DNA from: Cetorhinus maximus
Taxonomy: Eukaryota
Assembly: GCF_964194155.1 (NCBI RefSeq)
Contig: NC_135892.1
Location: 25,296,001-25,360,000, forward strand
Direction: 5' to 3'
Length of the DNA: 64,000 bases
Shown: positions 32,457 through 50,302 of the stretch, one piece after another
Layout of the letters: each line of letters starts with the position of its first letter
Numbering within the stretch: position 1 is the stretch's first letter
Made by a program: the position numbers and the translations under genes
The notes under the pieces: model-generated
Database searches by the model: none
What the model saw: the letters and a program-made list of their open reading frames with translations, nothing else
What the model was told of the DNA's origin: nothing

Positions 32457-32459
32457 ATG
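32457..32459 (+). CDS. Cofilin-like gene exon 1 (ATG only)
   Basis: TCAGCC-ATG|GTAAGC: Kozak context plus donor. An ATG-only first coding exon is characteristic of ADF/cofilin genes. Confidence 0.8.
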
Positions 32460-47400: not shown

Positions 47401-50302
47401 CACCTCTTGCAATTGCATGAAGGGGATGATGTTGGGGTGAATGAAGAGTGAACTAGGTGTTGCAGAGGAAACAGTCCCTTGGGTGTCTGCTTTGCAGAAC
47501 GCCTCCACTCAGTCTTGTCATGTGCTGGTCTGAATCTGGTTTCTGTTCATTATTCTGCCATACACATGCACTCCCCAGTCAAATATATTATTTCTTTAAT
47601 ACAACCAGTACCACTCTCTTTATTTGTGTTCAATGACATCATTGCCATTTAATCTCTCCCTCTGCCCTATCCCAGACCACTTTTTTTGTTGTTCCTTGCC
47701 CGCCAGCCCAGCCAGTTGACTTATCAACCATCACATTTCTATCCTTCCTTCCTATCTGACTCGGTGTTAACTTTGTTTCTCCACAGATGCTGCCAGACCT
47801 GTGGAGTATTTCCAGCACTCTGGTTTTTGAAACTAATAACTTTGTGATTTTAACAGTCTATAAAATCCTTGGCTTTTTCCCCCACTGGAACCTGGTTAAA
47901 CTTTAAAAGTCACGTTTTCTCAAAGTCAATATTTTGACTTTTCTAGGTGTCCAGAAAAGGCACCACTGAAACAGAAGATGCAGTTTACAACAACAGTTAA
48001 TTCACTGAAGAACAAACTTAAAGGTTAGTTAAATTATTATTTTGCATAATATACTTCTGTGGAAACTGAACTAGGCACCCACTTGAATTCTGTAACTAGA
48101 AATCTCAATTGAATTGAAGTATTGCATTTCTATTCTGCCTTTCACTATTTCAAGATGCCTTAAGCTTTTCCAAAACCTATTTCAGCTATGAAATGTGGTT
48201 ACTGTTGTAATCTTGAACCATGCTGGCAAACTTTGAAAGCTACCAATGAGAAAATAGTTTGACTTTTTTTTTTCTACTATGAAATTGAACACTGGGGAAG
48301 GGAGATTTTTTTTTTGTCTCCATGCATGACTTGGGGATAGTCTGTAGTTTATTTTTCCTCAGATAACAGTGGATTATTTTTGGTCTTTGCAGAGAGGGAG
48401 TGCTGACTTAAATATTGACTCCAGTCAGGGAGTGGTATCTGGGTTGTGGGAGAATTCGGGAACTACAAATCTGACCATGGAGGTCTGGGAAATAAAGCCA
48501 CAAAATGGTTGACTCTACCTGCTTGCATTGGTCAATGTCCCCTGAATCCTAGTGGCAGTCATTGAACCATGAAAATGTAGCTCAAATTGTACCATTTATT
48601 TTTTTTAAAAAAGGATGTTGGTTTCAGCAGTATAAACTGGGATTCCCTGAATCCAGATTAGCTGAATACGAAAGAGTGAGAGAAGATCATAGGCCTGTCT
48701 CTCCTAGACATGGCACATCTCCTTTTACACTGCTGATTCATTCCATAATCATGTGACCTCCTGGATGAGGCTTGGAACAGCAAAATAGGAGAGAATCTTC
48801 GGCTCGGCAAGCAGGGGTGCGGCCCACTCACAGGCGTAAAATTACGCAGGGTGACGTTGGGCGTGCATCCCCATATCACCGCACGTCGTTTAGATTTTCA
48901 GTTCGGCCAAACTGTCAAAAGCTTATTAAGGCCATTTGACTAACAATTAAAATAATGAATAGAGCTGCCTGTTCAACCTTAAGGCTGACTTGGGGAACCC
49001 ACCCCCTTCCTTCCTGCACAGGGAGTGCACAGCGCTTCCGGAGAAATGGTAGCGTGGACCCAATTAGGGGCACCGATTGGGTCCGCCCCTGCACAATGGG
49101 GGGGAAAATTCTACCCATAGGGTATGAATCAGCAGCGTAAAAGGAGATGTGCCATGTCTAGGAGAGACAGGCCTATGATCTTCTCTCACTCTTTCGTATT
49201 CAGCTAATCTGGATTCAGGGAATCCCAGTTTATACTGCTGAAACCAACATCCTTTTTTAAAAAAAATAAATTAAATGGTACAATTTGAGCTCCAATCGGG
49301 GCGTGCTGACATTTTGTGGGTGTGTGAAATAGCACACTCATCTCCCTGAGGCTAAGTGCTGCCAAATTTAAAAATGGTGCAATTTCCCTGACATCCTCAT
49401 GTGACACTGTCTCATGAGTTGGGACATGTCAATCACTTTAATCAAACCTTTATTAAATTTTTAAAATACCTCATCCCGCCCGTGGATGAGTTTTCATGCT
49501 TTTTTTCCTGAAGCCTGCCAGGGCTCCCAGCCCAGGTCTATTAATTATTTCAATTAGTTTTTAAACGGCCTCAACAGGCCATTGACAGGTCGGTGGGCGC
49601 ACAGCTGATTCTGCTGAGCTCCCGCCAACCTGAAAATTGAAATGACGTGGAGAGTTCTGCCCAACGTCATCCTGCATCATTTTACACATCGGGGAGTGGG
49701 CTCCGCTCCTGGCCATAAACTTGTTTTATAAATTCCGGGGGAAAAAACCCTCCATCTCCTCCTCTATCCATTGAAACTACAGGCCTTAAATCCTCCAGCT
49801 GCAACAGCCAGAAGCTTGCTCTTTAAAATTGGAAATGTCCTTTTCGGTCATTGCTGCACTCTCATTTTAAAGGATGATGGATTTACTATACTCACCAAAG
49901 TATATTCCAGAGGACAACAACTTCTATGAAAATAAAGATTTCTTGGCATCTAGCTTGTTTGCCAGTGAATTTGGTATACATGATCTTGCTATCCATGGTT
50001 ATCTCCTGAGTAGATTAAGTGCAATCACTTCATCACTCTCTTGCCATGTATTTCTGCTTTTCTTTCCAAATGCATAACAGGTGGGGTTGAGGGGTTGGGG
50101 GTTAATTCCCTGAAGTTGCAGGGCATTTTCTTCCTACTGACTGAGCATTATGGTTCACTATGTAAAACCTTGCCTTTTTTTTTCTCCCCCAACAGGTATC
50201 AAGGCCAACTTTCAGCTCAATTGCTTGGATGATATAAGCCGCAGTGAGCTTGCTGAAAAGCTGGGGGATGATGTCGTGAAAGTAGAAGGAGTAGCGGTGT
50301 GA
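32457..50302 (+). CDS. ADF/cofilin-family (cofilin/destrin-like) actin-depolymerising protein, 4 coding exons, 158 aa: join(32457..32459,38051..38340,47947..48023,50196..50302)
   Basis: Spliced product MQSGIKIHDSVIEAFNEMKLLSPKSNKRRRKFLRLCMSDDNQYIIVDDKSDSVQETNEDDYLNLLNHLQPNVACVLIYDVSYETKNSLTKEDLVFIQWCPEKAPLKQKMQFTTTVNSLKNKLKGIKANFQLNCLDDISRSELAEKLGDDVVKVEGVAV. All introns are GT-AG with phases 0/2/1 and a 77-nt exon 3, as in vertebrate CFL1/CFL2/DSTN. 477 nt, no internal stops. Confidence 0.93.
34905..36870 (+). mobile_element. Penelope-like element fragments (GIY-YIG endonuclease + terminal repeats), with a SINE tail at ~36415-36595
   Basis: CSQCSLLYIRETKRRLDD (34944-34997) is a GIY-YIG motif; a similar stretch lies at ~36175; hammerhead-like ends at 35211 and 36801. 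Confidence 0.8.
36801..36838 (+). ncRNA. Minimal type I hammerhead ribozyme motif (Penelope-associated, probably decayed)
   Basis: AGTT-CTGATGA-A-AGGTCA-T-TGATCT-GAAAC-ATT-AACT: intact CUGAUGA and GAAA, stems I and II pair. The family GAAACGTT has become GAAACATT. Confidence 0.6.
38051..38340 (+). CDS. Cofilin-like gene exon 2
   Basis: TTCTCTTGCAG|CAATCTGGT...CAGTG|GTATGT; encodes QSGIKIHDSVIEAFNEMK...YDVSYETK...KEDLVFIQW. Confidence 0.95.
40925..43330 (-). mobile_element. Decayed RTE-clade LINE in intron 2
   Basis: WETLACDRPKWRRLIREG (41044..41364); IELQYADEAC (YADD motif) at ~41830-41860. Confidence 0.8.
43640..47170 (+). mobile_element. Decayed CR1 (ORF1 end + ORF2 pieces) with a nested MITE and a second-family LINE (46141-46790, -)
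   Basis: VVVHIGTND and LLPVP ORF1 motifs; GVVYRPPN; HGFMKGKSCLTN; ORF 46906..47103 is the C-terminus. Confidence 0.85.
44384..44484. mobile_element. 101-bp Tourist/Harbinger-type MITE
   Basis: TIRs GTCCATGATTTTACAGCC / GGCTATACAATCTTGGCC; 3-bp TSD GTA; removing it restores CR1 GATGTAGAATCAG. Confidence 0.8.
47170..47830. mobile_element. Penelope fragments (GIY-YIG part on -, terminal repeat on +)
   Basis: Reverse complement reads LLFIGESKRRLGDHFVEHL; tail GATGCTGCCAGACCTGTGGAGTATTTCCAGCA. Confidence 0.75.
47947..48023 (+). CDS. Cofilin-like gene exon 3 (77 nt)
   Basis: CTTTTCTAG|GTGTCCA...CTTAAAG|GTTAGT; (W)CPEKAPLKQKMQFTTTVNSLKNKLK(G) aligns to WAPESAPLKSKMIYASSKDAIKKKLTG. Confidence 0.93.
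48579..49291. repeat. Near-perfect inverted duplication: arms 48579-48741 and 49124-49291
   Basis: Arms differ by one substitution and one 5-nt (ATTTA) indel. Confidence 0.97.
48788..49116 (+). mobile_element. Harbinger-type MITE (internally deleted relative of 12755-13376)
   Basis: TIRs GGAGAGAATCTTC / GAAAATTCTACCC; 3-bp TSD ATA. Confidence 0.8.
49292..49740 (-). mobile_element. Truncated copy of the same MITE family, opposite orientation
   Basis: Reverse-complement similarity to 12755-13160 (CATGTGACACTGTCTCATGAG, AACAGGCCATTGACAG, CTGAAAATTGAAATGACGTG). Confidence 0.7.
50196..50302 (+). CDS. Cofilin-like gene exon 4 (to stop TGA)
   Basis: TTTTTTTTTCTCCCCCAACAG|GTATC; GIKANFQLNCLDDISRSELAEKLGDDVVKVEGVAV* aligns to GIKHELQANCYEEVKDRCTLAEKLGGSAVISLEGKPL. 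Confidence 0.93.

What the first reader, a model, noticed from the sequence alone, without database searches (positions are those of the whole stretch)
32457..50302. Intact but strongly divergent ADF/cofilin paralogue with a remodelled actin-binding helix
Seen: an open 158-aa spliced CDS with canonical splice sites. My manual alignment to human cofilin-1 (recalled from memory) gives roughly 40% identity, well below that among typical vertebrate CFL1/CFL2/DSTN. Kept: Ser3 (LIMK site, but in MQSG rather than MASG), a basic NLS (KRRRK), Y68, K96, W104, K112/K114 and LAEKLG. Changed: the conserved KMIYASSK becomes KMQFTTTV, CRYALYD becomes ACVLIYD, and the pH-sensor His133 becomes Ala. Inference: a fast-evolving, intron-retaining (not retro-) paralogue that may have altered severing activity, pH response or partner specificity.
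Basis: partly seen in the sequence, partly recalled or inferred. Interest (0 to 1): 0.7.

Follow-up and report, generated by a model that had tools for sequence, protein, structure and literature searches.

The report
Shark destrin with rewired actin-binding helix
This intact, spliced gene sits among the same neighbouring genes as our actin-disassembling protein destrin and is very likely its shark version, not a new gene; sharks and a skate share a changed actin-contact helix and lack one or two of its usual off-switches, so it likely still grips actin but is predicted to do so more weakly and under less control.

Summary
In detail: four exons, canonical splice sites, 158 aa, identical to NCBI's 'cofilin-2-like' of basking shark, about 40% identical to cofilin-1, spliced in contigs from five runs of related organisms. 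It is not an extra paralogue. It lies tail-to-tail with RRBP1, followed by SNX5 and an OVOL gene, the order around mammalian DSTN; the same genome holds ordinary CFL2 (beside BAZ1A-type, SNX6-type genes) and CFL1 (beside SNX32). NCBI already names the skate orthologue 'destrin'. Trees cannot place it (long branch); synteny does. The real point of interest is lineage-wide: Ile116 of the actin-binding helix is Gln in 13 of 13 shark and skate sequences (1 of 137 other cofilins), His133 is lost in all 13, Ser3 in 6 of 13, and all 13 are acidic, while the charged actin anchors and the predicted fold are kept. Chimaera and frog destrins keep the ordinary helix. Likely a weaker, less regulated ADF; no activity was measured. 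The scan's earlier notes hold nothing on this gene. New variant of a known protein, moderate to low interest.

The parts
32001..33000 (.). CpG-richer promoter and first-exon region
   Evidence: CpG observed/expected 0.50-0.61 against 0.27 for the window
32074..32083 (.). Perfect CArG box about 300 bp upstream of the 5'-most transcript contig end; possible SRF site, weak evidence
   Evidence: 9 such boxes in the window, 6.35 expected by chance
32373..32456 (+). 5' untranslated part of exon 1, no upstream ATG
   Evidence: covered by the spliced contig of run X1 (table 8)
32457..32459 (+). Start codon, the only coding part of exon 1
   Evidence: GTAAGC donor follows; X1 contig piece 32373-32458 abuts piece 38050-38339
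38051..38340 (+). Exon 2 (290 nt, residues 2-98): Ser3, F-site Lys19, basic run, ACVLIYD strand, Lys96 equivalent
   Evidence: PF00241 above cut-off; joint to exon 3 in 4 of 4 runs
47947..48023 (+). Exon 3 (77 nt): the long actin- and LIMK-binding helix, KQKMQFTTTV
   Evidence: same length as exon 3 of this genome's CFL2 and CFL1; joints on both sides
50196..50302 (+). Exon 4 coding part (107 nt): Ala at the His133 position, LAEKLG, stop
   Evidence: joint from exon 3 in X1, X3, X5, X7, X14, absent in genomic run X15
50303..51788 (+). 3' untranslated region as far as contigs reach; ATTAAA at 50803 and 51767, AATAAA at 52211
   Evidence: contig pieces; hexamers; true end not shown by contigs

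Best explanation
This intact, spliced gene is very likely the shark orthologue of destrin (DSTN/ADF), and its protein likely still binds and disassembles actin filaments, but is predicted to do so with a weaker hydrophobic grip at the G-site and with less control by pH, lipid and phosphorylation than ordinary cofilins. Shown: open frame, splicing, neighbours RRBP1-SNX5-OVOL, separate CFL1 and CFL2 genes, and the residue pattern. Inferred mechanism: the kept F-site residues (Met18, Lys19, Asp86, Lys96, Asp98, Gly130, Lys132) and the four long-range G-site residues (136, 142, 151, 152) plus Lys112/Lys114 would still capture a filament and bridge two subunits; Ile116Gln, Ala118Thr, Lys121Val, Arg21Leu, Gln or Asp at position 2 and a net negative charge would lower affinity and the drive to twist the filament; Tyr82Val, Ala83Leu and Tyr117Phe look like repacking under the helix. 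Loss of His133 would remove pH-dependent PIP2 inhibition. The change happened once, after the split from chimaeras and before the shark-skate split, and has been kept under purifying selection since. Odds: destrin orthology about 0.95; still binds actin about 0.8; weaker and less regulated about 0.55. The confidence given is for orthology plus retained actin binding.
For: Synteny: RRBP1 (named by 120 listed homologues) ends 17.8 kb after the stop codon on the opposite strand; SNX5 (best PDB match) at C14 25.62 Mb and an OVOL-type zinc-finger exon at 25.73 Mb follow; PCSK2-like and BFSP1-like genes lie on the same chromosome at 10.74-10.77 Mb. Mammalian order PCSK2, BFSP1, DSTN, RRBP1, BANF2, SNX5, MGME1, OVOL2 (PMC4975395, PMC7667198). 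In 7 of 7 species with both record lengths on hand the orthologue and RRBP1 lie on records of the same length, 0 of 4 for the CFL1-type control. The genome's other two cofilins sit beside a BAZ1A-type and an SNX gene (C19) and beside SNX32 (C1099) and keep KMIYASSK. The skate member of the clade (100/99 support) is named destrin by NCBI. Function: model pLDDT 88, unbroken helix 105-121, TM 0.88 to cofilactin cofilin 5yu8; 12 of 20 G-site and 10 of 16 F-site residues of PMC5945598's list identical, the four long-range ones all kept; interface positions more conserved inside the clade than others, 0.59 against 0.47, p 0.037. Selection: 1 amino-acid-changing against 3 silent listed differences, p about 0.05; run X1 differs at 3 of 474 coding and 18 of 601 3' UTR bases.
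Against: The protein tree does not join it to tetrapod destrin; AU tests reject none of destrin, CFL2 or CFL1 sisterhood, and the destrin constraint scored worst by a hair (p 0.065, 0.100, 0.075). By identity it is closer to cofilin-2 (43.9%) than to mammalian destrin (34.4%). The upstream neighbour is not BFSP1 but SLC22-type and cystatin-like genes, and no BANF gene was found between RRBP1 and SNX5. For weaker activity: polar residues at 116 occur in 10 of 137 other cofilins and Thr at 118 in 11 of 138, position 118 tolerates Trp and Pro for LIMK (PMC6835155), His133Ala severs like wild type (PMC2592832), so activity may be near normal. G-site conservation inside the clade (0.50) is hardly above background (0.47). 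The structure model was fed an alignment holding ordinary cofilins and leans to their fold. Spliced contigs come from related organisms, not the window's own, and the tool only guesses that they are RNA.
Confidence: 0.75

Rival explanations
1. Destrin orthologue under relaxed constraint with essentially ordinary ADF activity: the changes are tolerated drift in a partly redundant third gene.
For: Frog and chimaera destrins are also only 40-41% identical to mammalian destrin; orthologues within sharks differ by 30-50%; knocking out ADF in mice gives only minor defects (PMC4696841); charged anchors kept.
Against: Seven positions are fixed or nearly fixed (12-13 of 13) in a new state, three of them in the G-site (Val5Ile, Ala105Cys, Ile116Gln); Gln116 is seen in 1 of 137 other cofilins. 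This rival shares the orthology claim with the best explanation.
Confidence: 0.3
2. Neofunctionalised destrin: binds filaments mainly through the F-site without twisting or severing them (a stabiliser or competitor of cofilin), or uses the new helix face for another partner.
For: F-site conservation 0.70 against G-site 0.50; long stem branch 1.26 changes per site, then fixation; Ser3 lost in 6 of 13, which would make sense if G-site binding no longer needs a switch; all 13 acidic, pI 5.1-5.8 against 6.3-8.4.
Against: Lys112, Lys114 and the four long-range G-site residues are kept in nearly all; F-site binding alone is weak according to PMC5945598; Arg21, an F-site contact (PMC13131642), is lost in 11 of 13.
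Confidence: 0.15
3. A fourth cofilin paralogue (missing ohnologue or lineage-specific duplicate).
For: Long separate clade that trees place apart from CFL1, CFL2 and DSTN; most databases call it cofilin-1-like or cofilin-2-like.
Against: Only three intact cofilin genes were found in the genome, one beside each of the three SNX5/6/32 genes; this one holds the DSTN position. A third OVOL gene on C33 has no cofilin hit on that contig. Genome searches score only the best candidates.
Confidence: 0.04
4. Decaying gene or recent pseudogene.
For: Many changes at sites that are nearly invariant elsewhere.
Against: Open frame of 154-174 aa in 12 further shark and skate sequences, spliced contigs in 5 runs of 5 studies, silent changes outnumber replacements.
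Confidence: 0.01

Closest known systems
Destrin / ADF (DSTN; PDB 1ak6; skate XP_032881648.1 and frog XP_053565275.1 named destrin)
   Same: Position beside RRBP1, SNX5, OVOL2; ADF-H fold; one residue shorter than CFL1/CFL2 before the last helix, as in mammalian, frog and chimaera destrin (also seen in outgroups, so not decisive).
   Different: 34% identical to a rodent destrin-type protein; helix KMQFTTTV instead of KMIYASSK; no His133; Tyr82 lost in 12 of 13; acidic; Ser3 lost in 6 of 13 orthologues.
Cofilin-2 (CFL2; PDB 1tvj, 5yu8, 7m0g)
   Same: Best sequence and fold match (E 8e-33, TM 0.88); same exon phases and 77-nt third exon.
   Different: The genome's real CFL2 is on C19, 85.5% identical to emu cofilin-2; this gene only 43.9%. 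The database name 'cofilin-2-like' reflects best hit, not orthology.
Cofilin-1 (CFL1; PDB 1q8g)
   Same: Fold, Ser3, Lys96, Lys112/114.
   Different: The genome's CFL1 is on C1099 beside SNX32; 31% identical to this protein.
Chimaera 'cofilin-2-like' NP_001280090
   Same: On a record of the same length as chimaera RRBP1; grouped with ADF at 32% bootstrap in PMC9042393; likely the chimaera orthologue.
   Different: Keeps RMIYASS, Tyr82 and Ser3; 33.8% identical to this protein.

Membership tests
ADF/cofilin family | Single ADF-H domain spanning the protein | tested here: met
   PF00241; model and Foldseek
ADF/cofilin family | Conserved actin-binding basic residues (Lys96, Lys112, Lys114) and Trp104-x-Pro106 | tested here: met
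   Lys96, Trp104, Pro106 in 13 of 13; Lys/Arg112 in 13 of 13; Lys/Arg114 in 12 of 13
ADF/cofilin family | Hydrophobic 115-116 and small 118-119 on the long helix | tested here: not met
   Gln116 in 13 of 13; Thr118/Thr119 in this copy
ADF/cofilin family | Binds G- and F-actin, severs and depolymerises | not testable with these tools
   needs biochemistry
ADF/cofilin family | Ser3 phospho-switch with LIMK docking residues Lys112, Met115 | tested here: inconclusive
   all three kept in this copy; Ser3 is Cys in 5 and Ala in 1 of 13 orthologues (PMC6835155); phosphorylation not measured
Vertebrate cofilins/destrin | Four exons, ATG-only first exon, intron phases 0, 2, 1 | tested here: met
   (exons 2-4 compared with this genome's CFL1 and CFL2; the human layout is recalled)
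Vertebrate cofilins/destrin | His133 pH/PIP2 sensor | tested here: not met
   absent in 13 of 13; also absent in chimaera and frog destrin and in 81 of 129 other representatives
Destrin (DSTN) orthology group | Located next to RRBP1, followed by SNX5 and OVOL2 | tested here: met
   order in mammals; the OVOL gene's number was assigned by position only
Destrin (DSTN) orthology group | BFSP1 and PCSK2 directly upstream | tested here: not met
   found as a pair 14.6 Mb away on the same chromosome; their names rest on Pfam domains plus recall
Destrin (DSTN) orthology group | Forms one clade with tetrapod destrin | tested here: inconclusive
   PMC3560075 supplement also calls the CFL tree inconclusive
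Destrin (DSTN) orthology group | CFL1 and CFL2 present separately in the same genome | tested here: met

The most novel reading that the evidence does not exclude
Sharks and skates turned destrin into a switch-free actin binder with a new job: it holds filaments through its charged anchors without cutting them, or engages another partner through the rebuilt helix, making it a naturally evolved vertebrate cofilin antagonist that needs neither LIM kinase nor pH control.
Probability: 0.15. Interest if true: 0.65.

Novelty: new variant of a known kind. Interest (0 to 1): 0.3.

Why it matters
First, it tidies the family history: PMC4696841 states that only mammals hold all three classes and PMC9042393 found no named adf in fish genomes and only 32% bootstrap for the idea; gene order in this shark shows CFL1, CFL2 and destrin positions all occupied, so the three-gene set likely dates from early jawed vertebrates, and shark 'cofilin-1/2-like' records at this locus should be called destrin. 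Second, the shark and skate proteins are a natural series of variants at sites that cofilin biochemists mutate (Ser3 to Cys or Ala, Arg21, Tyr82, Ile116, Ala118, Ser119, His133Ala), kept by selection; they offer a direct test of how much of the G-site helix and of the Ser3 switch a vertebrate ADF needs. Without activity data it is an evolutionary footnote, not a new system.

Tried and rejected
Trees: resolve the shark-skate clade but not its sister; grouping with a hagfish sequence is likely long-branch attraction. BFSP1 search in 232 kb upstream: nothing by composition and exon scans; it was found elsewhere. ERCC4 search for MUS81 beside CFL1 gave no hit on C1099. Vps5 family search missed SNX5/6/32. 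Retrocopy origin rejected: three introns in the family's positions, no intronless hit. No run was on record as RNA; contig depths differ widely but cannot rank expression and tissues are not given, so tissue specificity is open. Atlas look-up of the RRBP1 exon returned nothing usable. PDB search of the cystatin-like exon found no real match, Pfam none: that label rests on recalled motifs. CArG box is not above chance window-wide. No tRNA or Rfam hit in the window. Four papers were not held, so the classical helix mutagenesis work is cited only through a review. Not-in-print check: searches 'destrin + cartilaginous fish' (0 papers), 'dstn, skate, shark, cofilin' (1 unrelated), 'destrin, cofilin, shark, phylogenetic' (1), 'destrin, cofilin, evolution, vertebrates, ortholog' (13) showed no paper on this helix change; subscription journals are mostly not covered. 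Earlier scan notes: nothing by sequence, nothing relevant by words.
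Full report
1. The observation. The four exons lie at 32457-32459, 38051-38340, 47947-48023 and 50196-50302 on the + strand, all introns GT..AG, giving 158 aa (a first attempt had one boundary off by a base). The product is letter for letter XP_078412828.1, 'cofilin-2-like' of Cetorhinus maximus. It matches PF00241 and solved cofilins (best chick cofilin, E 8e-33; destrin 1e-23).

2. It is spliced and under constraint. Of 20 listed runs, 18 hold exon 2, none on record as RNA. 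I laid 6 of them. Contigs of X1, X3, X5 and X14 skip intron 2 and intron 3 exactly; X7 skips intron 3 too and the genomic run X15 does not. In X1 the exon 1 piece abuts exon 2 (table 8). These five runs are five studies of three related organisms, not the window's own; the tool flags X3 as probably DNA, yet no intronless copy was found in this genome. Of four coding differences listed by place, one changes a residue (Asn26Thr, also seen in the white shark protein) and three are silent; 75% would change a residue by chance, p about 0.05. One further exon 3 difference is counted but not placed by the tool and was left out of that test. X1 differs at 3 of 474 coding and 18 of 601 3' UTR bases.

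3. Which cofilin is it? The window is C14:25,296,001-25,360,000. A PF05104 gene lies downstream on the opposite strand; all 120 listed homologues that carry a name are ribosome-binding protein 1, and its exons run from 25,487,162 to 25,364,079, ending 17.8 kb after the cofilin stop. SNX5 follows at 25.62 Mb and an OVOL-type exon at 25.73 Mb. Mammals have PCSK2, BFSP1, DSTN, RRBP1, BANF2, SNX5, MGME1, OVOL2 in this order (table passages of PMC4975395 and PMC7667198). A convertase last exon and a filament gene facing it, which I read as PCSK2 and BFSP1 (Pfam plus recall), lie on the same chromosome at 10.74-10.77 Mb; directly upstream of the gene are SLC22-type genes and a cystatin-like gene instead, so the block was broken on that side. 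The genome has two more intact cofilins: one on C19, 85.5% identical to emu cofilin-2, between a WAC-domain gene and an SNX5/6/32 gene, and one on C1099 tail-to-tail with a gene whose best PDB match is SNX32, near OVOL, PF13896 and nucleoside-transporter exons (that these are the human CFL1 neighbours is recalled). Both keep KMIYASSK. So each of three SNX5/6/32 genes has one cofilin beside it and this one holds the destrin place. Across species, the orthologue and RRBP1 lie on records of equal length in 7 of 7 species where both lengths were shown (two catsharks, sevengill, whale shark, a bamboo shark, thorny skate, chimaera) and the CFL1-type control in 0 of 4; this shows the same chromosome, not adjacency. 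For four other species no RRBP1 length was listed.

4. Trees. From a 50-row alignment I used 31 rows, dropping 19 partial, badly modelled or redundant ones: nine shark and skate rows, including the skate protein that NCBI names destrin, form a clade at 100/99 on a stem of 1.26 changes per site; CFL2 end branches are 0.04-0.13. Its sister is unresolved. With 17 rows, AU tests rejected none of destrin, CFL2 or CFL1 sisterhood (p 0.065, 0.100, 0.075). Orthology therefore rests on gene order. The supplement of PMC3560075 also calls the CFL tree inconclusive (passages).

5. What changed, and when. Against the cofilin-actin contact list of PMC5945598 (Supplementary Table 1), this copy keeps 12 of 20 G-site and 10 of 16 F-site residues, including all four long-range G-site residues. 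Over 13 shark and skate sequences: Gln at 116 in 13; Cys at 105 in 12; Ile at 5 in 13; His133 in none; Tyr82 in 1; Arg21 in 2; Ser3 in 7, Cys in 5, Ala in 1; Gln or Asp at position 2 in all; pI 5.1-5.8 against 6.3-8.4 in seven other cofilins. Among 147 other representatives, 137 have a residue at 116: Gln once, other polar or charged residues nine times, Thr five times. His133 is present in only 48 of 129 of them, so its loss is common. Chimaera NP_001280090 keeps RMIYASS and frog destrin RLLYASS, though both are only about 40% identical to mammalian destrin: destrin is fast-evolving outside amniotes generally, while the helix change is specific to sharks and skates. Within the clade the 36 interface positions are more conserved than the 117 others (0.59 against 0.47, p 0.037), driven by the F-site (0.70) and not the G-site (0.50). 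The model (58-row alignment, pLDDT 88) has an unbroken helix 105-121 and superposes on cofilactin cofilin at TM 0.88: the helix is changed in side chains, not in predicted shape.

6. How it likely works (inferred). PMC5945598 (passages) proposes capture through the F-site, then long side chains, then full G-site binding that twists the filament. The first two steps have their residues here; the third has a polar residue where NMR places Met115 and Ile116 at the interface (PMC5355874, passages). Ser119 sits in full contact with actin and Arg21Gln lowers rod formation (PMC13131642, results section). I therefore expect binding and disassembly, but weaker. His133Ala leaves severing unchanged but makes PIP2 binding lower and pH-insensitive (PMC2592832, abstract and passages), so the natural Ala would mainly remove a lipid brake. 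LIMK docks on Lys112 with Met115 and tolerates changes at 118 (PMC6835155, passages): this copy could still be phosphorylated, the Cys3 and Ala3 orthologues could not. None of this was measured.

7. What is known. NCBI names the skate gene destrin and the shark genes cofilin-1-like or cofilin-2-like. PMC9042393 (passages and one section) suggested at 32% bootstrap that fish cfl-like genes including the chimaera one are adf orthologues. PMC4696841 (passages) says only mammals have all three classes; it sampled no shark in the passages I saw. PMC8534876 and PMC11853071 were read as passages only. Four searches found no paper on the elasmobranch helix change.

8. Verdict. Real, intact gene; very likely destrin; a lineage-wide variant with a changed G-site and lost regulatory sites. 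New variant of a known kind, interest 0.3.

Noticed in passing
G000:C31:17,787,689-17,787,919 (L004): Partial copy of CFL1 exon 2 lacking its first third, with no other exon found in 20 kb; likely a dead fragment.
   Followed up: partly
G000:C14:10.74-10.77 Mb (L064-L067) versus 25.33 Mb: The PCSK2-like/BFSP1-like pair is 14.6 Mb away from destrin-RRBP1: a rearrangement break directly upstream of this gene; a BAF gene lies at 22.24 Mb.
   Followed up: partly
G000:C14:25,096,001-25,207,000 (L024-L035): At least two tandem SLC22-type transporter genes on + and a cystatin-like gene on - are the upstream neighbours; the cystatin label is from recalled motifs only.
   Followed up: partly
G000:C14:25,445,092-214 and 25,436,244-366; 25,364,406-483: One RRBP1 exon appears twice with equal identity, and a near-terminal coiled-coil stretch is repeated: local duplication, alternative exons or assembly artefact.
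   Followed up: no
G000:C4:134.16-134.28 Mb and 177.02-177.09 Mb (L086-L090): Clusters of at least six actin-like genes in which everything after about residue 42 is one 334-codon exon; the two read are close to conventional cytoplasmic actin in sequence.
   Followed up: no
window 61237-63267 (-) and many stretches in 1-31000: A 677-codon reverse-transcriptase frame (PF00078) and many LINE-like remnants; nearly half of the region is self-repeated.
   Followed up: partly
proteins P0030, P0036, P0047, P0052, P0064, P0070, P0080, P0082, P0101, P0119: Other divergent vertebrate-type cofilins with Lys, His, Asn or Gln at position 116; their sources were not looked up.
   Followed up: no
G000:C32:2.50-2.52 Mb and C1401: Two tandem BAF-family genes, duplicated on an unplaced contig.
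   Followed up: no
window 32074-32083: Perfect CArG box 300 bp upstream of the transcript contig start; mammalian destrin is recalled as an SRF target, but the paper was not held and the motif is not enriched in the window.
   Followed up: partly
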